64,000 bases of DNA. It comes from an uncultured virus (IMG/VR IMGVR_UViG_3300025630_000012) (lineage: Duplodnaviria; Heunggongvirae; Uroviricota; Caudoviricetes). Each line of letters begins with the position of its first letter. The first letter of the stretch is position 1. Shown in pieces: positions 34,672 to 58,448 of the stretch. The stretch lies in the IMG/VR virus record IMGVR_UViG_3300025630_000012; one strand, written 5' to 3'. The notes below the pieces were generated by a model, which worked only from the letters and a program-made list of their open reading frames with translations, did no database searches and had not been told where the DNA came from. The position numbers and the translations under genes are program-made.

Positions 34672-35394
34672 ATGGACTACAAGAAGTATTTCGCCCAAGC
34701 CGAGGAACAAGCCAACGAGCAGTACCTCAACTATGGTGGATACCCTGCCGTTGATGCCGATTTCGACGATTACGTGGAAGCCGCAGGTGGTTCTTACATG
34801 AACCAAACGGGTGCGATGAATGGCGGAGGTGCTCCAACCTCACAACCCTACATCATCACCATTTCTAACTCGACTACCAACGCTGTTACTTCTAACATCA
34901 TTGGTAAGGCGTTCGCTAACATTACCGCATCAGGTAACGGCATCAACACAGGTGTCACCTACACGATGGGTATTAGCGGAACAACCTACGTCGAGTTCCT
35001 TTACCAACAATTGAACAAGCCATTTATCGTAGGTTTAACCTACGTTGATGCTTCTTCACAGGCGCAAGCCTTGAAGACGTTGCAGTTGAAAGTACGGGAC
35101 ACTAATGGTAATGTTCAGGAAAGAACCATCGTTCCAACGGTAGACCCCTACCAGCAGCAGACGGACATCCTTGCAATCCGCCAATCTTGGCGTTGGGATG
35201 GCTTTACGTCTATTGCAGTTGACCTGAACGCATCAGCGTCTGCGACCTTCTACTTCTACCCATCCGAAAACGTCAACCTTACTCGTGGACTCGCGGGTCA
35301 GTCCGTGGCTCGTGGCTACGGCAACCCTAACGTCGTTCGTCAGGATAAGGTTGTACTCGGTGAAGGTGTCGCACAGGCATTGGCACAGGGCTAA
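34672..35394 (+). CDS. putative major capsid protein (beta-rich, jelly-roll candidate) with N-terminal extension
   Basis: Position after the ATPase and small TM gene; upstream promoter and own terminator; alternating beta-strand patterns; no Cys; fold inferred only. Confidence 0.55.
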   Translation: MDYKKYFAQAEEQANEQYLNYGGYPAVDADFDDYVEAAGGSYMNQTGAMNGGGAPTSQPYIITISNSTTNAVTSNIIGKAFANITASGNGINTGVTYTMGISGTTYVEFLYQQLNKPFIVGLTYVDASSQAQALKTLQLKVRDTNGNVQERTIVPTVDPYQQQTDILAIRQSWRWDGFTSIAVDLNASASATFYFYPSENVNLTRGLAGQSVARGYGNPNVVRQDKVVLGEGVAQALAQG

Positions 35395-35414
35395 TATCCT
35401 AACCAATAACACAT

Positions 35415-35457
35415 GGAGAAGGTGGCGGAAATTTTTTCGCCACCTTTTCTTATTTTT
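35415..35457 (+). terminator. rho-independent terminator after the capsid candidate
   Basis: AAGGTGGCGGAA/TTTCGCCACCTT stem with a T-rich tail. Confidence 0.85.
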
Positions 35458-35476
35458 ATAGCAAATTTTTCACGAA

Positions 35477-36055
35477 ATGAATCTTTACTCATATATCGCC
35501 TCCATGAATCCCCGCAAGGCTAATGTTCTTTTAAGGAACAACGGCTTTGGTGAGGGAAAAACAACATCTGAAATTGAGGCGCGATTAAAGCAGTATGTTA
35601 GAGAGGAGCGCGAGGAGGCAATGAGGGAGGTTGCGAAGATTCACCCCGACAAAGAACTTTTAATTGGAGATGGCGTCAACTCGGAGTTATTGAACTACAC
35701 GGGAAGAGAGCGTCACCGCAACTTCAACGGACAGGAATTTCTTCAAGACCTCGACACTACGACTTACTATGGGCCAAACGCAAATCAAAACCCATACCGC
35801 CCTATCGCACCTGACTTTTTCAATAATGCCATTGGCGTAAGTCAGCAACAATTCCCAATGAATAAATCAGCAGACGCGGGAATCACAAAAGATGACTTGA
35901 AAGAAGCCGTTAAAACTGCCGTCACCGAAGCCAAGGCAACGGAAATGTCCTCTGAACCAAAGACGGCAAGCGTATTGTCTTTCAGTCAACAAGAAGTCGT
36001 CATGATGTTGGGCTTTGCATTTTTGGGATACCTCATCGCTAAAAAAGGATTATGA
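35477..36055 (+). CDS. C-terminally anchored membrane protein
   Basis: C-terminal TM + KK; LLNYTG and HRNFNG motifs. Confidence 0.75.
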   Translation: MNLYSYIASMNPRKANVLLRNNGFGEGKTTSEIEARLKQYVREEREEAMREVAKIHPDKELLIGDGVNSELLNYTGRERHRNFNGQEFLQDLDTTTYYGPNANQNPYRPIAPDFFNNAIGVSQQQFPMNKSADAGITKDDLKEAVKTAVTEAKATEMSSEPKTASVLSFSQQEVVMMLGFAFLGYLIAKKGL

Positions 36056-36672
36056 AGAACAAAAGAGAGGCCGCGAAAGTATTGGCAAGCGTAATTGATG
36101 ACCGCACAACGGAGGTGCGCGATGCGCTATTTGATTCGGGCGTAAAAATCAGCCCAAATGCCGATAAAGATGAAATTGTTTATGCCATCCTTGAAAACCT
36201 TGGGACAAATCGTAGGCTACAAAAAAAAGTCGGAAAGTTGGCTTTGGAGGTTAGCCCTCAGTCCTTTCCCGATTTAAGAGCGCGTAGAACGAGCAGAAGA
36301 CCACAACTCGACCAAACAGGATTTTTTAATCAGTCGGGCGACGACAAGTTTTTTCAGTCCGAGGCGGGGCAACAAACCCTCGATGCCGCAGGTCAACTTG
36401 CGGGGACTCTTTTGGGCAATTTTCTTGCCAATAGACAAGCTGAAAAGCAAGCGCAGTTAGATGCGGAAACGGCAGAAAGCCAAGCACGTCTTTTACAGGC
36501 AAATGCGGAGTTGGTTAAGGCAAACCTTGCGCTTGAAAATATCAAGGCTCAACAAGCATCTATGATGACACCGACGGGCAAGATGCTGATGGGAGTCATC
36601 CTTGTCGGTGCGTTGCTTGCAGGGTTCTACTTTTACAACCAATCAAAGGGCGGTGCTACGGCAACAAACTGA
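36052..36672 (+). CDS. C-terminally anchored coiled-coil membrane protein
   Basis: FFNQSG, Gly-rich helix, coiled coil, TM. Confidence 0.75.
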   Translation: MKNKREAAKVLASVIDDRTTEVRDALFDSGVKISPNADKDEIVYAILENLGTNRRLQKKVGKLALEVSPQSFPDLRARRTSRRPQLDQTGFFNQSGDDKFFQSEAGQQTLDAAGQLAGTLLGNFLANRQAEKQAQLDAETAESQARLLQANAELVKANLALENIKAQQASMMTPTGKMLMGVILVGALLAGFYFYNQSKGGATATN

Positions 36673-36677
36673 TTCGG

Positions 36678-36962: not shown

Positions 36963-36966
36963 TCGA

Positions 36967-37395
36967 ATGTTGTCCGCAAATCAGTTGCATAAGCAGAGCC
37001 AATTACAAATGGATTTTCAGGATTTCCTTTCAAAGATGAAGGAAGCCTTTGGGGAAAATTTCATGGAAAAGGTGAACGAGGGTAAGGTTGCCCTTCAAGA
37101 GATTCAGTCCGCGTTAGGATTGATGGTTACACCCAAAAGTAGTGAGCAGGAAAAGCCCCAAGCACCCGTTCAGAGGCGTAGAACGGCTAATCCAACGAAG
37201 AATGTAGAACCAAAAGTTCAAGTCAAGAAAGTCACGAAGTCAGCGACGGGCGATGCAGGATTCAAACCCAAGTGTAGCAGTTGTGAGAAGAACAAAAAGA
37301 ATGCTACGGGGAAAAAGAGCAATACGATGCGTAACGTCTTGATTTTTGCAGGTATCGGGGCAGTCCTGTTTTGGGCAGTCAAAAATAGACGTTAA
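36967..37395 (+). CDS. C-terminally anchored membrane protein
   Basis: TKSATG, KKNATG, CSSC, TM + KNRR. Confidence 0.75.
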   Translation: MLSANQLHKQSQLQMDFQDFLSKMKEAFGENFMEKVNEGKVALQEIQSALGLMVTPKSSEQEKPQAPVQRRRTANPTKNVEPKVQVKKVTKSATGDAGFKPKCSSCEKNKKNATGKKSNTMRNVLIFAGIGAVLFWAVKNRR

Positions 37396-38210
37396 TGGAA
37401 GTAGAGGTATATGTAGGCAGTCAGCCCACGACTTTGGTTATCCCTATCGAAACCGCGCAGGAGCATAAAATAGGCATCCGCGTTAAGTCGGTAGAAAACC
37501 CCAACACACTTTACGTTGATAGATACAAGACAATCAACGGGAGAGTAGACATTGAGGTTGGAATGCCCATCGCGCCTGAAAAGGTAATTGTAGAGGTCTA
37601 CAATCAACCTATGGGCATGATAAGCATGAATGGGGGCTATCGTGTAGGGAAGATTATTCAGAAGCCTTTGCAGGATATGCCTCAGTGTATCAATTACTCA
37701 AATCCGAAAATTAAGTCAGCACTACCCTTTTTTACCAAATTCTCCGCGATTGCAGGATTTGCTGATGCGGGCGACAAAGTGTATTACGACAAAACTTTCG
37801 AATTTGTAATTGTCTACAAGGACTCTATTCCCGAAGCGATGGAGACGCCCGCTCGTATCCACGCGCAGAAGGGATTTATTGAAGTGAGTGCCGAATACTT
37901 CCGTCGCTACACCATACCGATGCGTATGGCAGTTTTGCTTCACGAATTTTCACACTTTTGGCTTAACCGAGATATAGATAGCGAAATAGAAGCCGATTTG
38001 AATGGTCTTGCGCTATACCTGTCGTTAGGATACCCTCGAATTTCTGCATTTAATTCTTTCGTAAAAGTATTTATGAATGCACCTACCGCGCAGAACCACG
38101 AGAGAATGGAAATAATAAAGAAATTTATTAGTAATTTTGATTCAGGCAATCCCCCGTCATTTGGGCAACCTTTGGCGGCCTTGACCCCACAATGTCAAAA
38201 TAAAGTTTGA
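37395..38210 (+). CDS. zincin metalloprotease, candidate virion maturation protease
   Basis: AVLLHEFSH followed by EIEAD (third ligand). Confidence 0.75.
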   Translation: MEVEVYVGSQPTTLVIPIETAQEHKIGIRVKSVENPNTLYVDRYKTINGRVDIEVGMPIAPEKVIVEVYNQPMGMISMNGGYRVGKIIQKPLQDMPQCINYSNPKIKSALPFFTKFSAIAGFADAGDKVYYDKTFEFVIVYKDSIPEAMETPARIHAQKGFIEVSAEYFRRYTIPMRMAVLLHEFSHFWLNRDIDSEIEADLNGLALYLSLGYPRISAFNSFVKVFMNAPTAQNHERMEIIKKFISNFDSGNPPSFGQPLAALTPQCQNKV

Positions 38211-39301
38211 TGTCTTTTAAGCACAATACAGGTGATTCTTTTCTACCCTCGGTAGACCCGTTTGGAGGTCGCGGTGAAAGTGGTGGTTTGAATCATGGAG
38301 GTCAGTACGATGTAGAGTACATCGTTGAGAACTTAAACAAGGGAACACGCACACCCAATGCTACGGCACGTCCGACTGCAAATCGCGCAGTAAGAAGAAA
38401 GAGCGCGAAGGCGGGTCAGCGTCCCTTTATGAGAAGTACGCCTCCTGTGGCTACCCCCAAGCCGACGAAGCAAGAAATTGCCCGTATGAAGTCCGCTACG
38501 GGCGTTGATGACGTTAGCGTTGATAACGAGGATTTCGTCAATGTTTCGGGCGCGAAAAAGAAAGAGATTGAACGCGGATTAGCGGACTACACTTGTTGGA
38601 GAGTTTGGGATGGCGGTGGTCAGAATTGCGCCTCACACGCACGATGGGAATTGCAACAAGGACGTTGCAACTCGCCCGTAGTTTCAGTAGCCAAGCAACG
38701 CCTTGAAGCCTGTACGCGAGCGCAGGGGAATCCCGATGACGTAGCCAAGTGTACGAAAGGGCGTGTGAACTACCAAGACAATGCTTTTTCTGACAAGAAA
38801 GGTAGGCGCGAGCACGTTCAAGGAACTGCAAAAAATTGGTTGGCAGACCTTGAAAGTGAGGTCGATGCTTGTTTGTTAAAACAACAAATGGGTGGAAATG
38901 GCGGTGGAAATACCATCTATGGTTGCATGGATGAGGATGCCTTAAACTACGACCCTACCGCAACCTTCAATCGTGGTTGTGAATATGCCGACGAAAGCGA
39001 TGACGTGGATGGCGGTTTCGACGACAATAGTTCTAACATGAACGCCAAATTGGATGAACTTTTTGAGCGATTGGGTAGCCTTGAATTTGGCAACGCTCCA
39101 TCGGGCGGTGGTGTCCCAACGCCTTCTGATAGCTATGCTTATGACTACGACTATGCACAATCGTCGGTTGGAGGTTCAAGCATGAATCCCCTTCTCATTG
39201 GTGGAATTGTCTTGGTTGTGGGGTTGGCTATTTTTATGATTAACCAACCAAAAAAGGTAGCTATGCCACAAGTTGCCCCAAGAGTTGCTCCAACTGCATA
39301 A
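38210..39301 (+). CDS. C-terminally anchored Cys-containing protein
   Basis: MKSATG, FVNVSG, one GCMD..NY..C repeat, TM. Confidence 0.75.
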   Translation: MSFKHNTGDSFLPSVDPFGGRGESGGLNHGGQYDVEYIVENLNKGTRTPNATARPTANRAVRRKSAKAGQRPFMRSTPPVATPKPTKQEIARMKSATGVDDVSVDNEDFVNVSGAKKKEIERGLADYTCWRVWDGGGQNCASHARWELQQGRCNSPVVSVAKQRLEACTRAQGNPDDVAKCTKGRVNYQDNAFSDKKGRREHVQGTAKNWLADLESEVDACLLKQQMGGNGGGNTIYGCMDEDALNYDPTATFNRGCEYADESDDVDGGFDDNSSNMNAKLDELFERLGSLEFGNAPSGGGVPTPSDSYAYDYDYAQSSVGGSSMNPLLIGGIVLVVGLAIFMINQPKKVAMPQVAPRVAPTA

Positions 39302-39302
39302 C

Positions 39303-39965
39303 ATGAGTTTTAACCAAACAATTGACCAAAGCGTATGGGATAGTTTGATGAGTCAAACGGCATCCCAAAAATCTTCGTCACAAACCAATAAGGTAAAGAA
39401 GTTTACGGGCGGAGACGCATACAAAAATGCAGACGGCAATTGGGTTAGAGCCAAATTCAAAGCCCCCATCCGCGATGCGGTAAAGGACATGATTGGTTTT
39501 TGGCAACACAAGGAAGGAAGCGTAAATTGCTCTGCCTTGGATGCCTCAATAAGCAAGGGAAATAGCCTTTTGAGCCTTCATTCATCAGACAAGAATGCTT
39601 TTAATCAAGCCGTGGAAGATGCTTGGACATCGCCCGTTAAAAGGGATGCCAAGATAACCAATCAAAGGGGCAAGTACGCGGCTCAAATGATGGAGCAGTA
39701 CACCGATGAACTCCAAAGAAAGCGGGACTCTCAATGTAGGGTTAGCGGAGATAAAGAGTTGGACTACGCCCAAAAGGATTTGGACTCTTCGTATGGGAAC
39801 TTGGGATATACCCCGCCTAACATGAACTATCAGCCGACACAGGCAGGTTTTGGTGGTGGAAACACCATGATATACTTAACCCTTGGGGCTATTGCCTTGG
39901 CGGGAATTATGATTATCAAAGCCCGCTCACCACAACCAACCCCTACAACTTACGTCAATGGCTAA
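39303..39965 (+). CDS. C-terminally anchored membrane protein
   Basis: VKKFTG, YKNADG, TM. Confidence 0.75.
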   Translation: MSFNQTIDQSVWDSLMSQTASQKSSSQTNKVKKFTGGDAYKNADGNWVRAKFKAPIRDAVKDMIGFWQHKEGSVNCSALDASISKGNSLLSLHSSDKNAFNQAVEDAWTSPVKRDAKITNQRGKYAAQMMEQYTDELQRKRDSQCRVSGDKELDYAQKDLDSSYGNLGYTPPNMNYQPTQAGFGGGNTMIYLTLGAIALAGIMIIKARSPQPTPTTYVNG

Positions 39966-40281
39966 TAGAGATATTTTTGGGTTCGCACCATCATCACATT
40001 CGGGATTCAAGAAGGCCACGGGTTCTAAATGCGATTGCATTTGCAAGGATGGCGTAAAGTACGAGAAGGCTTGCGATTGGGACGAGTGGGCGATGTGCGA
40101 TTGTTGTGTTGGTTTTTGTGCGGGTAAAGACACCGATGTCTTTTCAAGAGCCACGGGAGGCAGAAAATGCCGTTGCCACCCCAACTGCGACAACCTCGCT
40201 TACAACTCGCCCGAATGCGAAAAATGTTGTTACGACAACGAAACAAAAGGTTTCAAAAGTGCTTGTGGTTGCGGGGCATGA
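39958..40281 (+). CDS. Cys-rich small protein (16 Cys) segmented by repeated motifs
   Basis: FKKATG, FSRATG, FKSACG. Confidence 0.75.
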   Translation: MANRDIFGFAPSSHSGFKKATGSKCDCICKDGVKYEKACDWDEWAMCDCCVGFCAGKDTDVFSRATGGRKCRCHPNCDNLAYNSPECEKCCYDNETKGFKSACGCGA

Positions 40282-40532: not shown

Positions 40533-40757
40533 ATGGCAAAGAACAACGCAATTTTTGGCTTTAAGAGCGCGAGCGGAAGAGGCGGTTATAGAAACCAAAC
40601 AGGTGGCGGAGATTATTGGTACACCTTGGGAAGACAGGCGGCAGAGGCCGCGTTTGCACAAGGTGGCGTCAATGGTTTGTTGGCATTCCTCGCAGGTTTT
40701 AACGCATCTGATTATAGCTACGGAGGCGCAGGGGACTTATTGGACACCTTGAACTGA
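40533..40757 (+). CDS. small Gly/Ala-rich protein
   Basis: IFGFKSASG, YRNQTG; N-terminus resembles that of 39958. Confidence 0.72.
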   Translation: MAKNNAIFGFKSASGRGGYRNQTGGGDYWYTLGRQAAEAAFAQGGVNGLLAFLAGFNASDYSYGGAGDLLDTLN

Positions 40758-41722: not shown

Positions 41723-42327
41723 AAGAAGATTTACCACTCATATTAGGAGGATTAGCGGTAGGAGCAGTCGTAGTATGGTATTTGACCAAGCCCGACTCTA
41801 CCAAGTCAAGACCTGTTCCCGAAGGGAGAGAAGAAGATTTGGGTTCAGGAGTTGTGGCATTAGGTGCGCCTACACAAGTCATTCAAGGTCAAGCAGGAAC
41901 TCAACCGAGCGTTCAAACCACAAATACGACGACAACGCAACAACCTGCATCCCCCCCTCCACCTTACGCCTTGGTAAATATCAACCCCGCATTCCAAGGC
42001 ACAACTGCCTACAACGATATGTTTGGCGGGTGTGACTTCCCTCTACTGCCCGATACGGAAAGTGTATGCGTGAAGCGTTTGCAAGATGCCTTTGATGTAA
42101 CCCAAACAGGGGTCTTTGATGAGCCTACGCAAGTGGCACTCGACCAATACATAGAAAAACTTCCCAATAGGACGGATGGGCACTTCGGGGGGTTCACACG
42201 AGAGGGGTGTATTGGATTTGACCCCATCTCGAATAAGACAACTAACGTCTGCGGACTTAACCACGACCAATACCTTGAAATTCTCTTCAAAATGGGGATT
42301 CCATTAACTGAAACTTACGATGCGTAA
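41719..42327 (+). CDS. N-anchored protein with a peptidoglycan-binding-like motif
   Basis: VKRLQDAFDVTQTGVFDEPTQVAL. Confidence 0.6.
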   Translation: MKEDLPLILGGLAVGAVVVWYLTKPDSTKSRPVPEGREEDLGSGVVALGAPTQVIQGQAGTQPSVQTTNTTTTQQPASPPPPYALVNINPAFQGTTAYNDMFGGCDFPLLPDTESVCVKRLQDAFDVTQTGVFDEPTQVALDQYIEKLPNRTDGHFGGFTREGCIGFDPISNKTTNVCGLNHDQYLEILFKMGIPLTETYDA

Positions 42328-42877
42328 AGAGTACAAAAATTTTATGGGAGACCGCTCCTCTATGTCCGTGGACTTGGACTTGGAGAGAACGGATGATTTT
42401 GTGAACCAAGTCGCGTATAACCCTGATGGTTTATTTGACTTTTTGGATGATGAAGACATCAAAATTACCCCATTAGGCACAAGCAATGGCGTTTTAGATA
42501 GTGACGGAGATGGTATTCCCGATATGATTGACATTGACGCGGGTAGTGGTACAGGAAAGCCCACAACGACTCCTTCTGCACCTGCACCGCGAGCCAATAA
42601 AGGCCAAGGTCTTGGCACGTTTGCTTCGGGATTGGCAAAAGGCTTGGGTCTCATCAATAGGGGCGCAACGCCACCACCACCCGTAGGCGATAGTCAGCCC
42701 GTCACCGACACCGCAGGATTCACAAACGAAGGCAGAAATATGGTTATACCATTGTTGGTTGGCGGTATTGCCGTTTTGGTTGTGTTTTTAGCCATAAGTG
42801 GCATGAAAAAATCAGGCGGTTCACCGCAGGTGTCTGTCTCCACTCCTTCACCCTCAAATAGCAACCCTAACGCATGA
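42320..42877 (+). CDS. C-anchored membrane protein with a Ca-binding-like loop
   Basis: YKNFMG; DSDGDGIPDMID; TM. Confidence 0.72.
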   Translation: MRKEYKNFMGDRSSMSVDLDLERTDDFVNQVAYNPDGLFDFLDDEDIKITPLGTSNGVLDSDGDGIPDMIDIDAGSGTGKPTTTPSAPAPRANKGQGLGTFASGLAKGLGLINRGATPPPPVGDSQPVTDTAGFTNEGRNMVIPLLVGGIAVLVVFLAISGMKKSGGSPQVSVSTPSPSNSNPNA

Positions 42878-43386: not shown

Positions 43387-43389
43387 GCT

Positions 43390-43807: not shown

Positions 43808-44107
43808 ATGGCGATAGAAATTTTAGGCAACGAGATTTTCACCCAAACACTCACGGGTAGTGGCGGGTCAGAGGTTCTTTCCATCACGGAAGCCGATGGC
43901 GTGGGTATCATAAGTGTGCTTTGTACGAGTGCTACGTCAGGTACAATTTTGGGGAATGCAACAATTGACGGCAAAGCCTCCGAAGCAATTTCTGTCGCAC
44001 AAAACAATTCAATCACAATTTCAGCAACTTCGGGCAAGACACTCGGTACTTTGACCATCACCGCGCCCGATGGTTGTACACTTTTGGTCGTAGCAAATCA
44101 GGGATAA
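43808..44107 (+). CDS. small all-beta protein (penton/vertex candidate)
   Basis: 99 aa, T/S/I/G-rich beta-strand pattern; role inferred. Confidence 0.5.
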   Translation: MAIEILGNEIFTQTLTGSGGSEVLSITEADGVGIISVLCTSATSGTILGNATIDGKASEAISVAQNNSITISATSGKTLGTLTITAPDGCTLLVVANQG

Positions 44108-44436
44108 TGACAAAACAAGCATTGAGAAGCAACTTAATTGGCGTGGTAGCGGTATCGCTATCCTTTGCCCTTGGCATCACGCTATATCAAGCCTTTTTGG
44201 TGGCTGACTTGGCTGATTTAGAGGACTCGACGGAAAGAAAAAGCGCACCCAAGCCCACCCCCAAGCCCGCACCTAAATTTTCGGGAGGTAGCACCCCCGC
44301 ACCAAAGCGTCGTAGCGCGATGAAAGAGTTTAGCGGTCATGGGCAAGCAGTTTCAGACAACGTACCCGACAACGAAAAAGTTAATTCTAACAAGCAACTT
44401 ATCCAAAAGGCGAAATCGTCTGAAATGCTCACTTGA
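44107..44436 (+). CDS. N-anchored membrane protein
   Basis: TM, PKP repeats, MKEFSG. Confidence 0.72.
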   Translation: MTKQALRSNLIGVVAVSLSFALGITLYQAFLVADLADLEDSTERKSAPKPTPKPAPKFSGGSTPAPKRRSAMKEFSGHGQAVSDNVPDNEKVNSNKQLIQKAKSSEMLT

Positions 44437-44438
44437 TT

Positions 44439-47165
44439 ATGAAGGGAAAAAATAAAAAGATTTTAATAGCAACAATCGCGGCTTTGGCTTCGGGGGGCAT
44501 TCTTTATGCCGTTCGTAAAAAGCAATCTGATGGGGAAGATAAATCCCTTGATGGAGATGAGCCGATTGTTCCGCCAATTCCGACTTCTATTTATGACGGA
44601 GAGCCTGTTGATGACGACTTTGGTGGCGGTGGCGTAGGTGATGACGAGGTTGTTGATGACGACTTTGGTGGAGGCGGAGGTGGTGGTAGTATCAATGCAG
44701 TTTTATGCCGTGGATTGGATGAGAATGGAGCGGAGATAGCTGATTTAGTCAATCAAGGCGAAGAGTGTCCTGCCAATACGCCATTTGGCCCTGACGACGA
44801 CATTGCATTCGACGATTACGTGTATGACGCATATCGGTGCTTTGATGTTGACGAAAATAATCAGATTGTCGAAGTAGAAAAAGAATTTACGGAGGTATGC
44901 GGGGTTGATTATCCCGACCACCCATTTAATACATTAAGCGACGCTCTTCTTTATGCAGAAAATCCCTCGGAATTTGAGGGTTGTACGGATGAAACGGCAT
45001 CGAATTATGATTCAGAGGCATTGTTTGACGATGGTTCTTGCGAATATGAAGCAGAACCCGTTTTGGGTTGTACAAACCCCGATGCTCTCAACTATGACGA
45101 CACGGCAACCGAAGATGACGGCACGTGTGAGTTTGATGAAGAGGTGGTAGCGGGTTGCATGAATCCTGATGCTCAAAACTATAACGACCAAGCAACAACG
45201 GACGATGGTACTTGCATTTTTGATGTTACGTGCTTCTATCTTGCAGATGGTGGCGAAGTATTAGAGCAAAATTTTGAATTACAGGCAGGGGAAACCTGTT
45301 GGGAAAGCGTAGATGCGTATATGTCTCCATCGCTCCCGACATTGCGCCTTGGTTACTTCGATACTTTCGAGTCAGCAGAGGCTTACGCCCAAGGAGTCAG
45401 CAGTTGGGATGATGATGTTGTCGTATGCTTGATGGTTGATGAAACGCTCCCATATCCCGAAAGCATCTATGAGGAGACGTTACCTGACCCCGAAACACAA
45501 TCGTGTGTTGATATTGGGGGTTTTGACCCTAACGCAACATCGGATGAGGCTATGGAGTTGGTTGCTACTCAAATGCACAATGAATGGCTTGCGAGCCAAG
45601 AGGTATTGGGATGCACCGACGAAACGGCCACGAACTTTATGCCCGATGCTACGGCAGATGACGGGTCATGTCAATACGCACCTACTACGCAGAATTGTAC
45701 TTGGCATGATGCACAATGCAATCCCGTAAGTGTTCCTAACCTACCTGTTGAAGTAGATGGCGTTGCAGTTACCTGCACGGATTTGGGATATGTTGAATTT
45801 GGCGATGAGCAAACCGCTATCGACTTCTGCGAGGCAAACGTAGCCTTGGCTACGATGTCTTGCTACTCTTATGATAGCGATGGCGTATTTATTTTAGAAG
45901 ATATAGATGCTATTGACCTTAATACAGGTGAGGCAAAGACCTGTACATCTTTGGGGTATTTCGAAATGAACCCTTCGGGTCTTGCTGATGCCACCTCCGC
46001 CTATCAAGCAGAGTTTGCTGATAGCAAGGTTGGATGTACTGACCCAAGCGCAACAAACTATGACCCAACCGCAATTACGGATGACGGCAGTTGTATCCTT
46101 CCCGAAGTGCCTATGCCAAGCGGAATCATTGATGCTGAATACGTCACAACAAATTGGTTTAATGACTGCGCTCAAACCGATGCAACGACTACCGATATTC
46201 TAACTCTACCTATACAATCAGGAGAGTGGGGTAGTGGTTTCTTCATTTCTGATGTGAATAGTATCATCGGATACGAGTGTTACGACGCGCAAGGAGAGCC
46301 TACGGGTACACCACCTCCACTTGTTTACGGGTGTACCGACCCTGATGCCTTGAACTACGATGCTACGGCTAATCAGAATGACGGAACGTGTGAGTATCCT
46401 GTCGCAAATGTCGAGGGTTGTACTGACTCATTGGCAATAAACTACAACCCTGATGCGACCTTGGAAAATGGTGCGTGTGAATATGGCATTGAATTTACAA
46501 GTTCTACGCCCGCAGACCTTACGCAGTTGAGTACCTGTGGTTCAGTTTCCGTGAGCCTTGCAAATCAAATCAATACAAGTGATGGCTCAGTTGGAGCGGT
46601 GAACTATATTTTGGGTCAGGCTTGTTTCGACCCCGCCACAGGCAATAGCGTTTATTACACGCCACCCGCAGAGAATGAAATCACTACGGCTACTGATGCA
46701 CAAAACATTTTGCTTGCGTGTTACGGCGGGACATCATTTGAGCCAAGCGTGGTTTTTGAAATAAATGGATTATCATATCCAATAACTGCGGCTGAATTTA
46801 ATTCAACAATTGGTTGGAATTGTTTAGACCCTGACACAGGCGAGGTGGTTCAAGTTTTAACTGATGGCGGTGGCGATACTAATGCTCTTGCGAGAAACTC
46901 TGACAAGAGCCTTAATACGGGTGACTTTGACACCTCGGAGTTTGACAATGATATTTTAGGTAGTGCAGGTGAACCCCCATCTACGATGGTTGGTGACACT
47001 ACGACTACAACGGAATTAAGTAATCAAAAATCCTTAATTTCGTCTACTGAAAAAACCACAAAAAATTTTGGCGGTAATTCGTCAAGTACGGGCGGGTGTT
47101 TAGACCCCATAGCCCTGAACTTTGATGAAGGCGCAGAATTTGACAACGGGTCTTGCATCTACTGA
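44439..47165 (+). CDS. N-anchored acidic Cys-rich repeat protein
   Basis: 8 GCT/M/L-D/N..N(Y/F)...DG.C repeats. Confidence 0.85.
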   Translation: MKGKNKKILIATIAALASGGILYAVRKKQSDGEDKSLDGDEPIVPPIPTSIYDGEPVDDDFGGGGVGDDEVVDDDFGGGGGGGSINAVLCRGLDENGAEIADLVNQGEECPANTPFGPDDDIAFDDYVYDAYRCFDVDENNQIVEVEKEFTEVCGVDYPDHPFNTLSDALLYAENPSEFEGCTDETASNYDSEALFDDGSCEYEAEPVLGCTNPDALNYDDTATEDDGTCEFDEEVVAGCMNPDAQNYNDQATTDDGTCIFDVTCFYLADGGEVLEQNFELQAGETCWESVDAYMSPSLPTLRLGYFDTFESAEAYAQGVSSWDDDVVVCLMVDETLPYPESIYEETLPDPETQSCVDIGGFDPNATSDEAMELVATQMHNEWLASQEVLGCTDETATNFMPDATADDGSCQYAPTTQNCTWHDAQCNPVSVPNLPVEVDGVAVTCTDLGYVEFGDEQTAIDFCEANVALATMSCYSYDSDGVFILEDIDAIDLNTGEAKTCTSLGYFEMNPSGLADATSAYQAEFADSKVGCTDPSATNYDPTAITDDGSCILPEVPMPSGIIDAEYVTTNWFNDCAQTDATTTDILTLPIQSGEWGSGFFISDVNSIIGYECYDAQGEPTGTPPPLVYGCTDPDALNYDATANQNDGTCEYPVANVEGCTDSLAINYNPDATLENGACEYGIEFTSSTPADLTQLSTCGSVSVSLANQINTSDGSVGAVNYILGQACFDPATGNSVYYTPPAENEITTATDAQNILLACYGGTSFEPSVVFEINGLSYPITAAEFNSTIGWNCLDPDTGEVVQVLTDGGGDTNALARNSDKSLNTGDFDTSEFDNDILGSAGEPPSTMVGDTTTTTELSNQKSLISSTEKTTKNFGGNSSSTGGCLDPIALNFDEGAEFDNGSCIY

Positions 47166-53781: not shown

Positions 53782-53782
53782 G

Positions 53783-54247
53783 ATGAGTTTCGCAGACGAC
53801 CAATACGACGTTATGGTTGGGGGGTCTAATGACTTTCCTCAACGTGTTTTGAATGAATCATACGTTCAGCAAGCCCCACTTGCGTTCGCACCGACATCGG
53901 GGCCAAAAAAATCATACAAAAAAGTGTCAGGAAATTCAGAAGAAACGCCTTCAACAAGTGTCGTAAAAGAAATTCAGGAAGAACAACAAAACCTTTCTGA
54001 CCGCCTTGATAAACTTGAAAACGAAGCACCACAAAAGACACGTAGTGCGAAAGAGTTTTGGAAGAAGCACCATAAAAAAATCAAAACGGGTCTTTTGGTA
54101 GGTGTTGCGCTCTATGCGGGCTACCGACTTTTTTTGAAGGATAAGTTCAGCTTCAAGTTTGGCGGAGGAGGTCACACACCAATGGATAGTACCCCACCGC
54201 CTATGTCGATGGAGTCGGGTGGTGAAATCACATCGGGAGATATTTAA
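53783..54247 (+). CDS. membrane protein
   Basis: YKKVSG; TM; FGGGG and MESGG. Confidence 0.72.
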   Translation: MSFADDQYDVMVGGSNDFPQRVLNESYVQQAPLAFAPTSGPKKSYKKVSGNSEETPSTSVVKEIQEEQQNLSDRLDKLENEAPQKTRSAKEFWKKHHKKIKTGLLVGVALYAGYRLFLKDKFSFKFGGGGHTPMDSTPPPMSMESGGEITSGDI

Positions 54248-54249
54248 TC

Positions 54250-54666
54250 ATGACAAGAACCCAAAGAGAGCGTCAGGCAGAAGCCATCATTGAGTCACAA
54301 TTCCCTTTGCCTTCAAACATTGATTGCAAGGGTCTTGTCGATACCAATGCGCTTATGAATGCCGAAAAAACTCTTTTATCCAATGAGGTTCTTGTAAAGA
54401 GGGGTTCGGAGAGAAAGATGGCAGAAGCTAAATTGTCCGCGCTCTCCGCTCAACGAAAGGTTCTCGACGAGATATACATTTTCAAGCGTTGTAGAGAATT
54501 AGAGCAAATAGACATCGAAAAGAAGCAACTCGATGCCATTTCTGCAATAAGGGACGACGATAAATCTTTGGATACGCGCACCTTTGACGACAGGACTTTA
54601 TTTGTGGTGTTTGGTGTGACTGCCGTGGCTCTTGCTATGGCTTACTTTTTAAGAAAGCGTGGATAA
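54250..54666 (+). CDS. C-anchored membrane protein
   Basis: TM + RKRG. Confidence 0.75.
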   Translation: MTRTQRERQAEAIIESQFPLPSNIDCKGLVDTNALMNAEKTLLSNEVLVKRGSERKMAEAKLSALSAQRKVLDEIYIFKRCRELEQIDIEKKQLDAISAIRDDDKSLDTRTFDDRTLFVVFGVTAVALAMAYFLRKRG

Positions 54667-55243
54667 TTCAGTCAAGATATTGGCTGATTTTATCGTTAAG
54701 GACAAGCAGAAAGTTATTCGATTCCTTAATGAAGGTGGCTACGCCTCTCTGCCTCGTTATGCTACGACTATGGAGGTCAACTATGCCGTTTCAGAGCATA
54801 TTTTTGACCAACAATTCCTTGAAGGTATTTCCGAACTTATTTTCAGAAACTACCGCAACCAATCAGGCCCGCCACCGCCTTTGGCAGATGTAGGCGGAGC
54901 AGTTGCTTCGGGAGGAGAAGTAGCGGAGGGCGCAAACCCTTGGACATACGTTATCAAAATTGCCGAAGTCGGTGCTAAACTCTTTGTTCAAGCAAAGCAA
55001 GCCGAGAATCAAAGGGCAGTTTTGACGGCACAAAGTGAACTTTCGGAGCGTCAATTGGAGTATCAAACTGAATTAGCGCGTCAAAAAGCGAAGCAACAAT
55101 TCGCTTTTAACCTCCTACAAGCACAAAAAGATTCGCCCGAAAAAACAACGGAAAAAAACCTTATTTTACTCTTTGGCGTCATCGCATTTTTAGGAATCGC
55201 ATACTATGCAACCAAACAAAGTTCTTCAAGACAAGTTAGCTGA
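54659..55243 (+). CDS. C-anchored coiled-coil membrane protein (architecture as 36052)
   Basis: YRNQSG, coiled coil, TM. Confidence 0.75.
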   Translation: MDNSVKILADFIVKDKQKVIRFLNEGGYASLPRYATTMEVNYAVSEHIFDQQFLEGISELIFRNYRNQSGPPPPLADVGGAVASGGEVAEGANPWTYVIKIAEVGAKLFVQAKQAENQRAVLTAQSELSERQLEYQTELARQKAKQQFAFNLLQAQKDSPEKTTEKNLILLFGVIAFLGIAYYATKQSSSRQVS

Positions 55244-56725: not shown

Positions 56726-56728
56726 ACT

Positions 56729-57880
56729 ATGTCACTCCCTTATCAATCCCAATTCTGCACATTTGACTCCTTGCCACAAATGGTAAGTGTCAACTCTTCG
56801 GGTACGGCTATTTCGAACGGAGACAAAAGACAAGACGTTCGTGATGGTATTCGCAAGTCAACTTGTTTCAAAGTAAGCGATGCCCCGCAGAATGTTCGTT
56901 CAAAGTGTAGCAACTTCTCTGCACTCAACGCGATTGACAATGGCGATTGTTGTCACCCCGTAGTCAAAAATGCACTTGAAAGCCTCAAAAGAATAGTTGA
57001 CCTCGGAGGCACAGGTAGTGGCATATCTTCATCGAATCTCAATGAGATGATGAATAGGTGTGTCAATAGTTGGAACACCTACGGCAATTTCAGCAACTCC
57101 GAAAAGGAGCGTGTAGGACGTTACTGCCGTCAGATGGCATCGCAATACTACAATGAATTAAGGGGAAAGTACACGACTTGTAAAGCCAACTTCAACCCTG
57201 CAAATTTCAACGAGACGAATACCAACGAGATTTGCGGTTGTATGGACGATGTTGCGGTCAACTACGACCCGTCAGCAACGAATAGCAACGGAATTTGTGG
57301 TATTTGTGAGTATGCTGATGACAGACCCGAAACCGCTTGGGGTACGGATAGTCAAGGCAATGAGGTTGTTTATGTAGGTAGCGGTAACGACGATAAGCCA
57401 CCAATGGGGGGCACTTCGCCCGTTGGCGGAGGTGGTTCAAATTCGTATGGGCCGATTTGTTGGTCGCCATGCCCTAATACAACGTCAGTTCAGTCAGCTA
57501 CAAGCTACTGCCCGCCTTCTTACCCCTATTATTCAAAGCCTACGTGCGATAGACCTTCGAGCAATCTTTCGTTGGATAGCATAACTGACCGAATAGCAGA
57601 ATTGACCGATATTCTCGCCAATAGACCTGCGCCAACTACGGCTACTTCTAATGCCGAAATTGAGGCGTTGCGTAGTGAGATGTCGATGTTGCAAAACCTT
57701 TATATGCAGGGTCAGCAGAGTATGCCTTATGGCGAAGAGCCTAAAACTTCGGGTATGGGCAACATCCCCGCTTGGGCTATCGTAGGCGCAGTAGCCGTCA
57801 TAGGCTTGGTTGTGGTGTTGAACAAGCGCAAAGGAGCAGGAGTATCCATGCCCGCCCCTTCCCCTATGCCCGTAGCTTAA
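56729..57880 (+). CDS. C-anchored Cys-rich protein (C-terminal half paralogous to 55760)
   Basis: GCMD repeat, CWSPCPN repeat, IPAWAIVGAVAVIGL TM. Confidence 0.8.
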   Translation: MSLPYQSQFCTFDSLPQMVSVNSSGTAISNGDKRQDVRDGIRKSTCFKVSDAPQNVRSKCSNFSALNAIDNGDCCHPVVKNALESLKRIVDLGGTGSGISSSNLNEMMNRCVNSWNTYGNFSNSEKERVGRYCRQMASQYYNELRGKYTTCKANFNPANFNETNTNEICGCMDDVAVNYDPSATNSNGICGICEYADDRPETAWGTDSQGNEVVYVGSGNDDKPPMGGTSPVGGGGSNSYGPICWSPCPNTTSVQSATSYCPPSYPYYSKPTCDRPSSNLSLDSITDRIAELTDILANRPAPTTATSNAEIEALRSEMSMLQNLYMQGQQSMPYGEEPKTSGMGNIPAWAIVGAVAVIGLVVVLNKRKGAGVSMPAPSPMPVA

Positions 57881-57899
57881 TGATGCCCAATGAAAGTTG

Positions 57900-58193
57900 A
57901 TGGGATACCGAATCAAGCCATACACGAAAAAGCGAGCCAAAACTCTCGGAGTAGAGGTGAAGCCGTCACGTGTAAAGGGAAAAAAGATAGATGTATTCAA
58001 AAAGGGGGAGAAGGTTGCAAGTGTTGGCGCAATAGGGTACAACGATTATCCGACATGGATGGAGTTGGAGAGCAAGGGCAAAGTGCCAAAGGGGACGGCA
58101 AACAAGCGACGGAGGCTATACAAGATTCGTCACAAAAAAGACAAAGACCAAAAAGGGACTGCGGGTTTTTACGCGGATAAACTTTTGTGGTAA
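57900..58193 (+). CDS. small basic protein, DUF5754-like (recalled from NCLDV/virophage-type viruses)
   Basis: KKIDV...GAIGYNDY...RRRLYKIRH...AGFYADKLLW. Confidence 0.65.
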   Translation: MGYRIKPYTKKRAKTLGVEVKPSRVKGKKIDVFKKGEKVASVGAIGYNDYPTWMELESKGKVPKGTANKRRRLYKIRHKKDKDQKGTAGFYADKLLW

Positions 58194-58223
58194 TTATTTA
58201 TTATTTTAGCAAAAACAATTACG

Positions 58224-58448
58224 ATGAGACAACAAACGAACAGAAGAGCGTCAGCACGTGCTTCAAGAGCACAAGCCGCTCGTCGCCAAGCCCGTAAGAA
58301 GGCAGTCGCCCGCTCTACGGGTGGCATGATGAATGCTACGGGCGCACAAACTCGTTTCAGAACACCCGCAGGAGGCTTCACTAACGCCACAGGAAACGGG
58401 CGTGACAAGGCACGTAAGGCCGCGAATATCTTAACACCCTTCTTGTGA
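58224..58448 (+). CDS. Arg/Ala-rich protamine-like core protein candidate
   Basis: RRASARASRAQAARRQARKK; MMNATG, FTNATG. Confidence 0.7.
   Translation: MRQQTNRRASARASRAQAARRQARKKAVARSTGGMMNATGAQTRFRTPAGGFTNATGNGRDKARKAANILTPFL

What the first reader, a model, noticed from the sequence alone, without database searches (positions are those of the whole stretch)
34672..58448. A shared six-residue motif in about 15 unrelated virion-region proteins: candidate proteolytic maturation or sorting code
Seen: consensus [F/Y/M]-x-[N/S/K/R]-[A/Q/F/V/Y]-[T/S/D/N]-G. Instances: capsid candidate YLNYGG and YMNQTG (both in the N-terminal extension); 35477 LLNYTG, HRNFNG; 36052 FFNQSG; 36967 TKSATG, KKNATG; 38210 MKSATG, FVNVSG; 39303 VKKFTG, YKNADG; 39958 FKKATG, FSRATG, FKSACG; 40533 FKSASG, YRNQTG; 42320 YKNFMG; 44107 MKEFSG; 44439 TKNFGG; 53783 YKKVSG; 54659 YRNQSG; 58224 MMNATG, FTNATG; and ORF 27..182 YKKQSG. 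Most sit at boundaries between low-complexity leaders and folded or hydrophobic segments. Known: adenovirus, poxvirus and ASFV mature by cleaving many structural proteins at a short Gly-containing consensus; PRD1/PM2-type bacterial viruses are not known for this. Inference: one virus-encoded enzyme recognises this motif, most plausibly the HExxH protease inside the operon.
Basis: partly seen in the sequence, partly recalled or inferred. Interest (0 to 1): 0.9.

Follow-up and report, generated by a model that had tools for sequence, protein, structure and literature searches.

The report
Shared short motif in virion proteins
A six-residue motif really does recur, and is conserved, in about ten unrelated structural proteins of an uncultured ~100 kb membrane-rich bacterial virus, most likely marking sites read by one viral factor, perhaps a conserved zinc protease encoded among them.

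Summary
All 24 listed instances are present. Codons differ between instances, so it is a protein motif. In 69 related virus loci (capsid 31-43% identical) the same consensus scores 161 vs 25 downstream of the capsid gene, 81 vs 4 in capsids and 13 vs 21 upstream. An unbiased pattern search there recovers [FY]-x-N-[AF]-x-G as the top signal. In 45-65% identical orthologs, 11 of 16 testable instances persist through poorly conserved flanks and 4 do not.

The function is not shown. The HExxH protein is conserved across the group, has invariant catalytic residues and an M48-like zincin fold, and is the only conserved protease candidate. Cleavage at the motif is my best reading (0.45). A docking or incorporation motif (0.27) is not excluded. 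N-glycosylation sequon, sortase signal and DNA repeat are rejected. The complex predictor was unavailable. No cultured relative was found.

The parts
34672..35394 (+). Capsid candidate, 240 aa: N-terminal helix (3-18), disordered arm (15-56) with two motif copies at nt 34723-34740 and 34795-34812, then a jelly-roll core (about 57-200)
   Evidence: 323 homologs. G23 is invariant in 34 sequences, and motif 2 is kept in most, a few residues before invariant S57-I61. Model pLDDT 67.6 with the arm below 50. Best fold matches are viral jelly-roll capsid proteins, Z 6.6 to 5.0, all below 8.
35477..36055 (+).
   Evidence: Homologs in 56 of 69 loci. The two listed motifs are retained in 10 of 10 orthologs; the third is seen conserved in the alignment.
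36052..36672 (+). 206-aa tail-anchored carrier (membrane segment 175-195), motif at nt 36322-36339
   Evidence: Motif kept in 10 of 11 orthologs while the flanks are only 21% identical; membrane segment.
36967..37395 (+). 142-aa tail-anchored carrier; motif at nt 37294-37311 lies 7 residues before the membrane segment (122-140); the listed instance at 37234-37251 is not conserved
   Evidence: 13 of 13 versus 0 of 13 orthologs; membrane segment.
37395..38210 (+). Candidate reader or enzyme: 271-aa protein with an N-terminal GOLD/CBM-like beta-sandwich (1-93) and a zincin domain (about 107-251) carrying HExxH at 183-187
   Evidence: It carries no copy of the motif itself.
38207..39301 (+). 364-aa tail-anchored carrier (membrane segment 324-348), motifs at nt 38486-38503 and 38534-38551
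   Evidence: First motif kept in 9 of 9 orthologs. For the second, the Gly is kept in 78% but a motif match in only 3 of 9.
39273..39965 (+). 230-aa tail-anchored carrier (membrane segment 198-217); conserved motif at nt 39420-39437; the listed instance at 39393-39410 is not conserved
   Evidence: 7 of 8 versus 0 of 8 orthologs.
39958..40281 (+). 107-aa Cys-rich soluble carrier, motifs at nt 40006-40023, 40141-40158 and 40252-40269
   Evidence: Only 2 orthologs were fetched. By reading the alignment, the second and third motifs are kept in both and the first in neither.
40533..40757 (+). 74-aa soluble carrier; conserved motif at nt 40587-40604; the instance at 40560-40577 is not conserved
   Evidence: 7 of 7 versus 0 of 7 orthologs, with flanks 33% identical.
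42320..42877 (+). 185-aa tail-anchored carrier (membrane segment 138-163), motif at residues 5-10 (nt 42332-42349)
   Evidence: 5 of 5 orthologs, with flanks 32% identical.
44074..44436 (+). 120-aa carrier with an N-terminal membrane segment (19-43), motif at nt 44320-44337
   Evidence: 3 of 3 orthologs.
44433..47165 (+). 910-aa protein; the listed instance at nt 47058-47075 is weak and poorly conserved
   Evidence: 2 of 5 orthologs.
53783..54247 (+). 154-aa carrier, motif at nt 53915-53932
   Evidence: Fits the strict consensus. Lies beyond the reach of the fetched loci, so conservation was not tested.
54659..55243 (+). 194-aa tail-anchored carrier (membrane segment 165-185), motif at nt 54851-54868
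   Evidence: Strict consensus; membrane segment; conservation not tested.
58224..58448 (+). 74-aa Arg-rich protein with two motifs 11 residues apart (nt 58326-58343 and 58377-58394); a possible DNA-condensing core protein
   Evidence: Translation; both fit the strict consensus; conservation not tested.
27..182 (+). 51-aa membrane protein outside the block, motif at nt 42-59
   Evidence: The only strict-consensus hit in the 1-34.4 kb proteins; membrane segment 24-41.
33530..34339 (+). P-loop ATPase next to the capsid gene: Walker A at residues 12-19 and a hydrophobic run ending in Glu-Asp at 105-110; a putative packaging ATPase
   Evidence: Translation. Weak DUF87/HerA hit, E 0.0021, 18.6 bits against a 23.2 cut-off. 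The best-conserved gene of the group: 68 of 69 loci, median 56% identity.

Best explanation
The motif, best written [FY]-x-[N>K,S]-[A,F,Q]-x-G, is a short linear recognition site. It sits in flexible segments of many otherwise unrelated virion-module proteins of an uncultured, membrane-protein-rich bacterial virus with a genome of about 100 kb. Carriers include the N-terminal arm of the jelly-roll capsid protein, the capsid-facing parts of tail-anchored membrane proteins, and an Arg-rich candidate core protein. I propose that it is the cleavage site of the virus's own zinc metallopeptidase (37395..38210), which processes these proteins during particle assembly, in the way adenovirus or phiKZ-type phages process many virion proteins at one consensus.

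Shown here: the motif is real, protein-level, specific to the structural module and conserved through divergent flanks; the zincin gene is conserved with an intact catalytic signature.

Inferred: that the zincin reads the motif, and that reading means cutting. If it does cut, zincins generally select a hydrophobic P1' residue (general knowledge, recalled), so I predict the scissile bond lies between position -3 and position -2 (Asn | Ala/Phe). That would make the site a compact P3-P3' unit with the aromatic at P3 and the Gly at P3'.
For: Enrichment and module specificity. Unbiased discovery: with membrane segments masked, the four highest-ranked gapped three-residue patterns are all pieces of the motif (z 22-28; maximum 4.9 in 6 shuffles; not enriched upstream). 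Conservation through flanks only 21-33% identical. Family level: 10 of 34 unrelated downstream families carry the loose motif in at least half of their members, against 3 of 35 upstream; strict motif 3 of 34 against 0 of 35. Tandem copies 6-30 residues apart: 57 observed vs 29.2 expected (maximum 42 in 300 random placements), as reported for cut-repeatedly propeptides in SPN3US (passages) and contiguous sites in adenovirus (passages). The two capsid motifs lie in the disordered arm, the second a few residues before the invariant start of the jelly roll; shorter capsid paralogs in a complete relative begin at that boundary without any arm. Enzyme candidate. No other protease family in 53 window proteins. 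In 135 ORFs of complete relative G001 the only other hits are sub-threshold NlpC/P60 and PPPDE/LRAT, and cell-wall enzymes (two SLT domains) are encoded separately, so the zincin is not needed as a lysin.
Against: There is no direct evidence of cleavage and none that the zincin contacts the motif. Zincin and capsid gene always co-occur, so phyletic patterns cannot test the link. The zincin reaches no curated Pfam cut-off and its structural matches are modest (Z 6.9 and 6.4). The motif is mid-protein and under-represented in the first 30 residues in relatives (10% vs 23%), unlike the mostly N-terminal propeptides of phage precedents. Some instances lie in well-conserved, possibly folded segments (35819-35836; 39420-39437 directly precedes a conserved stretch). 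One instance is followed by a proline run (54851-54868). Motif density differs between lineages: a complete relative has only 7 strict hits genome-wide. A weight matrix trained on relatives transferred poorly to the window (15 vs 9.3 at threshold 7).
Confidence: 0.45

Rival explanations
1. Docking or incorporation motif. The motif is a peptide handle bound without cleavage by one conserved virion component: the jelly-roll shell, the beta-sandwich domain of the zincin protein, or another core protein such as 43390 or 30238. It would tether the membrane proteome and core proteins to the assembling shell, as cargo-loading peptides do in encapsulins or capsid-targeting sequences do in T4.
For: All the enrichment and conservation data fit equally well. 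In tail-anchored carriers the motif always lies on the N-terminal side, which is predicted to be cytoplasmic and capsid-facing. Tandem copies would give avidity for an oligomeric receptor. The mid-protein position and instances next to conserved segments suit a retained handle. The zincin protein has a GOLD/CBM-like sandwich, a fold class used for binding (Z 8.4-8.1).
Against: The capsid protein itself carries two copies, which is odd for a shell-docking tag unless they mediate inter-subunit contacts. No receptor is identified. An Arg-rich core-like protein with two copies resembles cleaved adenovirus core precursors more than docked cargo. A conserved, catalytically intact protease in the module would then lack an obvious substrate.
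Confidence: 0.27
2. Post-translational modification site. The motif marks a residue (Asn at -3 or Ser/Thr at -1) that virus- or host-encoded enzymes glycosylate or otherwise modify.
For: Many window instances read N-x-S/T, and 20 of the 24 have Ser/Thr at -1. The window encodes a glycosyltransferase-like protein (31818..32501). Relative G001 carries a large glycan-synthesis set: PglD_N/hexapeptide transferase, DegT aminotransferase, three GT2, one GT1, RgpF and a sulfotransferase.
Against: Asn at -3 is replaced by Lys, Ser, Gly or Arg within orthologous positions and is only 66% even among seeded instances in relatives. Ser/Thr at -1 totals 27% there, with Asp the commonest residue. The constant positions are the aromatic and the Gly, which are not acceptor residues.
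Confidence: 0.1
3. No common reader. The pattern is a convergent structural or biophysical element, for example an aromatic-anchored turn favoured in membrane-proximal linkers. It would recur because these proteins share an environment, not a partner.
For: 22 of 33 structural-region proteins have membrane-like segments against 5 of 45 in 1-34.4 kb, so the carriers share an unusual context. The consensus is loose and differs in flavour between lineages: basic flanks in the window, acidic in relatives.
Against: Enrichment survives local-composition shuffles. Specific columns are held through indel-rich flanks. Soluble proteins without membrane segments carry it too (capsid protein, 39958, 40533, 58224). 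Upstream families with membrane segments in the relatives do not show it.
Confidence: 0.12
4. Chance or artefact. The list is a post hoc pattern in low-complexity sequence, or the reflection of a DNA repeat.
For: The consensus was fitted by eye. 10 of the 24 instances break it, and 4 of 16 testable instances are not conserved.
Against: Independent replication in both directions, unbiased recovery, local shuffles, and codon variation at the instances.
Confidence: 0.02

Closest known systems
Adenovirus maturation by the viral protease AVP (adenain)
   Same: One virus-encoded protease cuts many capsid and core precursors at a short Gly-containing consensus. Sites can be contiguous and tolerate departures from the consensus, and basic core proteins are among the substrates (review PMC4246237, passages read). 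The virus belongs to the jelly-roll capsid lineage.
   Different: AVP is a cysteine protease; the candidate here is a zincin. The adenovirus consensus (hydrophobic residue at P4, Gly at P2 and/or P1'; recalled) differs from [FY]-x-N-[AF]-x-G. The adenovirus major capsid protein is not a substrate, whereas here the capsid candidate carries two copies. Cleavage here is not shown.
Prohead-protease maturation in giant phages (SPN3US gp245, phiKZ type) and T4 gp21
   Same: A bacterial-virus precedent for many virion proteins sharing one cleavage motif: 14 sites in 9 SPN3US head proteins, several motif copies per propeptide, and propeptides that also act as targeting signals in T4 (PMC10052503, passages read).
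   Different: Those are tailed HK97-fold phages with serine-type prohead proteases and Glu at P1 (recalled). No such protease family was found here. 13 of the 14 SPN3US sites remove N-terminal propeptides, whereas this motif is mostly mid-protein.
Peptidase family M48 / minimal gluzincins (BepA, HtpX, Ste24 type)
   Same: HExxH on a helix followed by a conserved acidic motif. The only catalytic-domain structural matches are BepA (Z 6.9, rmsd 4.4, 120 residues aligned, 16% identity) and 3c37 (Z 6.4, 114 aligned, 18% identity). Language-model neighbours mostly carry PF01435 (16 of 30 hits). M48 enzymes typically act on membrane or envelope proteins (recalled).
   Different: No member reaches the Pfam cut-off: 3 of 32 give sub-threshold M48 hits, and more give SprT-like (8) or PhageMetallopep (6) hits. 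There is an extra N-terminal beta-sandwich and no membrane segment.
Encapsulin cargo-loading peptides
   Same: A short conserved peptide shared by unrelated proteins that directs them to a virus-like protein shell (search listing and abstracts only).
   Different: Those peptides are terminal, bind an HK97-fold shell and are not carried by the shell protein itself. Binding was not tested here.
Membrane-containing tailless phages (PRD1, PM2 and relatives)
   Same: A jelly-roll capsid candidate beside a small P-loop ATPase; a block of small membrane proteins; lytic transglycosylase domains in a relative.
   Different: Genomes are about 100 kb (three relatives at CheckV 100%) against 10-20 kb (recalled). 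There are several single jelly-roll paralogs plus a tandem one. The review of the field has no occurrence of proteoly*, cleav* or protease in its main text (PMC6356626), so maturation cleavage is not part of the known picture for these phages.

Membership tests
Virion maturation-cleavage code (adenovirus / phiKZ type, as a functional class) | The same short consensus recurs in several unrelated structural proteins more often than chance | tested here: met
Virion maturation-cleavage code (adenovirus / phiKZ type, as a functional class) | The sites are conserved in relatives while the flanks diverge | tested here: met
   11 of 16 testable instances kept; flank identity 0.21-0.78 (alignments).
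Virion maturation-cleavage code (adenovirus / phiKZ type, as a functional class) | A virus-encoded protease is co-conserved with the substrates | tested here: inconclusive
   The zincin candidate is present in 64 of 69 loci with invariant HExxH, but protease activity and virion association are unknown.
Virion maturation-cleavage code (adenovirus / phiKZ type, as a functional class) | Demonstrated cleavage at the consensus | not testable with these tools
   Needs proteomics or co-expression; the complex predictor was unavailable.
Adenain (peptidase C5) or phage prohead proteases (S78/U35, S49, S80, S21) | Presence of a member of these protease families | tested here: not met
   No such Pfam hit in 53 window proteins at E<=0.01 or in 135 ORFs of complete relative G001 at E<=0.001. 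32 of the 85 window ORFs, mostly the small ones, were not scanned.
Peptidase M48 (PF01435) | HExxH zinc site with a downstream acidic ligand | tested here: met
   H183, E184, H187, E197 and D201 are invariant in 32 sequences. That E197 is the third ligand is inferred.
Peptidase M48 (PF01435) | Score above the curated family cut-off | tested here: not met
   3 of 32 members hit PF01435, best E 0.015, none above the cut-off.
Peptidase M48 (PF01435) | Fold of the catalytic domain | tested here: inconclusive
   BepA Z 6.9 and 3c37 Z 6.4 are the only catalytic-domain rows in the top 50, but both are below Z 8. Foldseek matched only the sandwich domain.
N-glycosylation sequon N-x-S/T | Invariant Asn with Ser/Thr two residues on | tested here: not met
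   Asn is replaced by Lys/Ser/Gly/Arg at orthologous positions. In relatives Ser+Thr at -1 total 27%.
Sortase / exosortase-type C-terminal sorting signal | Motif immediately followed by a C-terminal membrane helix and a basic tail | tested here: not met
   True only for 37294-37311 (7 residues before the helix). Other carriers have the motif about 80 to 210 residues before the helix or have no helix at all.
EF-hand-like calcium loop | Asp at loop position 1 and an acidic residue at position 12 (consensus recalled) | tested here: not met
   Position 1 is Phe/Tyr in all seeded instances. No conserved acidic residue six positions after the Gly (profile, which reaches +8).
PRD1/PM2-type (jelly-roll, internal-membrane) virus | Jelly-roll major capsid protein | tested here: inconclusive
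   Best matches are viral capsid jelly rolls (Z 6.6 nepovirus, 6.1 PR772, 5.5 PBCV-1, 5.0 FLiP), all below 8. Foldseek found nothing at E<=0.001.
PRD1/PM2-type (jelly-roll, internal-membrane) virus | FtsK/HerA-type packaging ATPase | tested here: inconclusive
   DUF87 hit E 0.0021, below the cut-off. Walker motifs are present. No hits in the PDB sequence search or NCBIfam.
PRD1/PM2-type (jelly-roll, internal-membrane) virus | Lipid membrane inside the particle | not testable with these tools
   Inferred only from 22 of 33 module proteins having membrane-like segments and a conserved PAP2 lipid phosphatase.

The most novel reading that the evidence does not exclude
The motif is a universal address tag of a new family of ~100 kb internal-membrane bacterial viruses. 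The capsid protein's own arm, the capsid-facing tails of the membrane proteome and the DNA-condensing core protein would all plug the same aromatic-x-N-A-x-G peptide into one receptor site on the shell or on the zincin's beta-sandwich. The tag would then be cut by that zincin: a combined dock-then-cut assembly code with no described counterpart in membrane-containing prokaryotic viruses.
Probability: 0.2. Interest if true: 0.85.

Novelty: new variant of a known kind. Interest (0 to 1): 0.66.

Why it matters
Short linear motifs shared across a virion proteome are the signature of a global assembly or maturation step. Such steps are known for adenoviruses, poxviruses, ASFV and some tailed phages, but not for membrane-containing tailless phages. 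Here the motif gives a concrete, cheap experiment (zincin plus a 74-residue substrate in E. coli) for a widespread virus group that has no cultured member. That group has 323 capsid homolog clusters, 73 IMG/VR loci, and no hit for the capsid candidate or the zincin in 50,697 phage records. Nearly all its proteins are unannotated. The motif also offers a sequence-only way to flag candidate virion proteins in related contigs.

Tried and rejected
DNA-level repeat: rejected, because codons vary at the instances.

N-glycosylation sequon, sortase-type signal and EF-hand loop: rejected on position-specific grounds.

Asn-dependent autocleavage as in noda- and tetraviruses (recalled): considered because Asn-Ala/Phe is in the motif. 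Set aside because Asn is replaceable and the sites lie in disordered linkers of many different proteins.

Iterated weight matrix from relatives: drifted to Gly/Ser low-complexity sequence and transferred poorly (15 vs 9.25 at threshold 7; 7 vs 4.2 at threshold 9).

Exact k-mer enrichment: dominated by conserved orthologous blocks. The first pattern enumeration was dominated by membrane-helix composition until those segments were masked.

Paralogy among carriers: my idea that 35477, 36052, 54659 and 55206 share an N-terminal domain was tested only for the pair 35477/36052 by direct comparison, which found no similarity (E 0.99). The all-against-all BLASTP of the 15 carriers also found no link among 35477, 36052 and 54659; 55206 was not in that set.

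Phyletic test of the zincin-motif link: the zincin occurs only in the same virus group (67 loci, the same contigs plus 4 new ones), so it is uninformative.

N-terminal bias: not found.

No result from: sequence searches of capsid, zincin and ATPase against PDB chains, NCBIfam and GenBank phages; the Atlas search for the capsid protein (scores 0.84); the search for a held whole genome; earlier notes of this scan (none).

Literature searches listed no paper on this motif or virus group. I saw listings and abstract starts only.

Full report
GENE SET AND SCOPE. The window has no N and nearly all long ORFs lie on the + strand. I used a simple caller: + strand only, ORFs of at least 40 aa, longest first, at most 60 nt of overlap. 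It gave 85 ORFs. It is not a gene predictor. Pfam on 53 of the 85 proteins and PHROGs on the same 53 left almost everything unnamed.

THE OBSERVATION. All 24 instances are present in the stated genes. That consensus gives 13 hits in the 33 proteins of 34.4-59 kb against 1.34 expected (0 of 2000 shuffles reach 13). It gives 1 vs 1.01 in the 45 proteins of 1-34.4 kb (that one hit is ORF 27..182) and 0 vs 0.27 in the 7 proteins beyond 59 kb. Shuffling within 20-residue windows, which keeps local composition, changes nothing (13 vs 1.4, 0 of 500). Codons at the instances differ freely: three Ser codons, two Thr codons, all four Gly codons. The signal is therefore in the protein, not the DNA.

INDEPENDENT REPLICATION. 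The consensus was fitted to the window, so I tested it elsewhere. The capsid candidate has 323 homolog clusters. A profile of 34 of them (A1) retrieved 73 IMG/VR loci, each with up to 10 kb of flank, and 69 of these contain a recognisable capsid ORF. It occurs 81 times in the 69 capsids (4.0 expected) and 13 times in 1159 upstream proteins (21.3 expected).

I then enumerated every gapped three-residue pattern spanning up to six residues, scoring only recurrence in more than one protein of the same locus, so that a conserved ortholog counts once. Raw, the list is led by the composition of membrane helices. With hydrophobic segments masked, the four highest-ranked patterns are NA.G, Y..A.G, Y.N..G and F.N..G, with F..A.G sixth and NF.G seventh. 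Their z scores run from 20 to 28 against a maximum of 4.9 in six shuffles, and upstream counts are 1-18. These relatives-derived patterns are in turn enriched in the window's 34.4-59 kb proteins: [FY].N..G 11 vs 4.0 and [FY].N[AF].G 4 vs 0.53, each reached by 3 of 1000 shuffles. They are not enriched elsewhere in the window.

The loci include near-duplicates, so I also collapsed them into homologous families. 10 of 34 downstream families present in at least 8 loci carry the loose motif in at least half of their members, against 3 of 35 upstream families. For the strict motif the counts are 3 of 34 against 0 of 35.

RESULTS THAT WEAKEN THE PICTURE. An iterated weight matrix drifted to Gly/Ser-rich sequence and transferred poorly. 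One complete relative, G001, has only 7 strict hits in 102 kb, 5 of them in its membrane-protein block. Motif use therefore varies by lineage and is heaviest in the window's lineage.

CONSERVATION. A metagenome scan with the HExxH protein returned a 100% identical stretch (L074, on a 102,007-base contig) and relatives 75-87% identical over that protein. Orthologs of the carriers there are 45-65% identical. Of 16 reader instances with at least three distinct orthologs:
- 11 keep a motif in most orthologs: 8 of 9 and 8 of 9 (capsid), 10 of 10 twice (35477), 10 of 11 (36052), 13 of 13 (36967, second instance), 9 of 9 (38207, first instance), 7 of 8 (39273, second), 7 of 7 (40533, second), 5 of 5 (42320), 3 of 3 (44074).
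- 1 keeps its Gly in 78% but a motif match in only 3 of 9.
- 4 are not kept: 0 of 13, 0 of 8, 0 of 7 and 2 of 5.
Flank identity around several kept instances is only 0.21-0.33, and the alignments show them surviving indels. Within orthologous positions Asn at -3 changes to Lys, Gly, Arg or Ser, and Ser/Thr at -1 changes to Asp, Ala, Met, Asn or Phe, while the aromatic at -5 and the Gly persist. In the distant relatives the profile is acidic at -7, Phe/Tyr at -5, Asn at -3 (66%), Ala/Phe at -2 (72%), Asp/Ser/Ala at -1, Gly at 0 and often Phe at +1 (the seeds fix -5 and 0). The 15 carriers are otherwise unrelated, apart from one module shared by 38207 and 44433.

ANATOMY. 22 of 33 proteins in the block have membrane-like segments, against 5 of 45 in 1-34.4 kb. 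Most carriers are tail-anchored, and the motif always lies N-terminal of the anchor. Four carriers have no such segment (capsid protein, 39958, 40533, 58224). Copies cluster: 57 adjacent pairs lie 6-30 residues apart, against 29.2 expected if the same number of motifs per protein is placed at random (sd 4.4, maximum 42 in 300). The median locus has 5 of 21 downstream proteins with the loose motif, against 2 after shuffling. The motif is not N-terminally biased in relatives (10% within the first 30 residues vs 23% expected) and is depleted in the last fifth of proteins.

In the capsid candidate both copies lie in a segment modelled as disordered (residues 15-56, pLDDT below 50), between a conserved N-terminal helix and the jelly roll. 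G23 is invariant across 34 sequences. The second copy is present in most sequences, but is lost in one subgroup (P0028, P0029, P0032, P0034), in P0065 and P0075, and degraded in a few others. In G001 only the main capsid protein has such an arm; the 174- and 154-residue paralogs start at the first strand of the jelly roll.

WHAT THE REPLICON IS. No whole genome is held for the window. Three relatives are about 100 kb and rated 100% complete by CheckV. G001's gene content is that of a bacterial virus: crAss001_48-like, Acb2/Tad1 hairpin, RecT, NUMOD4/HNH endonucleases, Cro/C1 HTH, two SLT domains, PAP2 and LEA_2. Among the 135 ORFs scanned there is no terminase, portal, HK97 capsid or tail family. 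The window's genes lack Shine-Dalgarno signals (7 of 85 vs 11.0 expected), have A-rich leaders and often overlap by 4 bases. Five relatives lie in MAG bins labelled Flavobacteriales, Sediminibacterium, Ignavibacteria, Gammaproteobacteria and Opitutia. A Bacteroidota-type host is my inference from these two points; bins can be wrong.

The capsid candidate's core resembles viral jelly rolls, but every Z is below 8. The neighbouring P-loop ATPase has only a sub-threshold HerA-type hit. 'Internal-membrane, tailless, jelly-roll virus' is therefore a reasonable reading, not a demonstrated one. The capsid candidate, the zincin and the ATPase have no match in 50,697 GenBank phage records.

THE CANDIDATE ENZYME. 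37395..38210 has homologs in 64 of 69 loci and nowhere outside this virus group in IMG/VR. H183, E184, H187, N191, E197, A200 and D201 are invariant in 32 sequences. The model is confident (pLDDT 88.2, pTM 0.89). Residues 1-93 form a GOLD/CBM-like sandwich (Z up to 8.4). The only rows in the top 50 that cover residues 107-251 are two M48-type zinc peptidases (Z 6.9 and 6.4). Sub-threshold Pfam hits in members fall on zincin families: SprT-like 8, PhageMetallopep 6, M48 3 and M56 3 of 32. Language-model neighbours mostly carry PF01435. The PDB sequence search found nothing. I therefore call it a divergent zincin with M48-like features, not a member of M48.

MECHANISM. A motif under selection in a dozen unrelated proteins of one module implies a common reader encoded by the conserved core or by the host. 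The known precedents for such a pattern in virions are protease sites (adenovirus, passages; SPN3US, passages; poxvirus, ASFV and T4, recalled). The module holds exactly one conserved, catalytically intact protease-like gene, and cell-wall enzymes are encoded separately in a relative. The tandem copies, the copies at the arm/jelly-roll boundary of the capsid protein, and the two copies in an Arg-rich core-like protein all have counterparts in those systems. That gives cleavage by the zincin the highest weight (0.45).

The data fit a non-cleaved docking motif almost as well (0.27). A modification site (0.10) is weakened by the replaceable acceptor residues. A reader-less structural element (0.12) is weakened by column-specific conservation and by the soluble carriers. 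Chance is excluded for the core set of instances.

NOVELTY AND LIMITS. Four literature searches (listings and abstract starts only) showed no paper on this motif or virus group. The review of membrane-containing phages does not mention proteolysis. If cleavage is confirmed, this is a new variant of a known kind: global virion maturation, here with a zincin and a new consensus, in a virus type where none is known.

Limits:
- There is no experimental or structural test of the enzyme-motif link, because the complex predictor was unavailable.
- 53783, 54659, 58224 and ORF 27..182 could not be tested for conservation, because the fetched loci did not reach them.
- The counts in relatives include related genomes, which is why I give the family-level figures as well.

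Noticed in passing
G001 (L160:6650-7174, L160:14648-15112, L160:17225-18418, L165:2286-2750; main copy L163:2233-2928): A complete 102 kb relative has six matches to the capsid profile. One ORF (397 aa by my caller; open frame 406 aa) has two tandem jelly-roll matches, i.e. a possible double jelly-roll protein made by duplication. The window's 64 kb holds no such paralog, though about 38 kb of its 102 kb contig lies outside the window.
   Followed up: partly
window 55760-56725 and 56729-57880: Seen by eye in the translations: a Cys-rich unit of about 32 residues (four Cys, Trp-Ser after the first) occurs three times in the first protein and once in the second. Both proteins end in Gln-rich coiled-coil-like sequence and a C-terminal anchor.
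   Followed up: no
window 38207-39301 (residues 237-260) and 44433-47165 (residues 631-655): A shared 25-residue Cys-containing module (68% identical, E 1e-5). By eye, a similar stretch is in 56729-57880.
   Followed up: partly
window 57897-58193, 58224-58448, 58445-58567, 58971-59393: A cluster of small, very basic proteins. 57897 gives a sub-threshold DUF5754 hit and is 62% identical (median) in 40 related loci, where it lies upstream of the capsid gene. 58971 gives a sub-threshold DUF5824 hit. These are possible genome-condensing proteins.
   Followed up: no
window 28605-29282: A PAP2-family lipid phosphatase (E 1.1e-7, above the cut-off) conserved in 62 of 69 related loci and in G001. This is a virus-encoded lipid-modifying enzyme next to the membrane-protein module.
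   Followed up: no
window 41306-41722 and 42874-43386: An annexin-repeat hit (29.4 bits against a cut-off of 25) in a protein with an N-terminal membrane segment. Also a LEA_2 hit (25.0 against 25.4) that recurs above the cut-off in G001 (31.8 bits).
   Followed up: no
window 15892-23601: A 2569-aa protein with SNF2-related and helicase C-terminal domains and PHROG matches to very large phage proteins. G001 has polyvalent-protein domains (ART-PolyVal, LPD11, DUF2958) in its large ORFs.
   Followed up: no
window 948-1019 (- strand): tRNA-Gln (anticodon TTG), the only tRNA found, on the strand opposite to the genes.
   Followed up: no
G001, L160:3947-16388 and L164:15361-18071: Large sets of sugar- and sulfate-metabolism genes in the relative: three GT2, one GT1, RgpF, DegT aminotransferase, PglD-like acetyltransferase, methyltransferase, sulfotransferase, APS kinase and cytidylyltransferase. 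G001 also has an Acb2/Tad1 hairpin-domain protein and a Cas12f1-like TNB fragment.
   Followed up: no
window, all gene starts: No Shine-Dalgarno-like signal (7 of 85 vs 11.0 expected), A-rich leaders, and 21 junctions with a 4-base overlap.
   Followed up: partly
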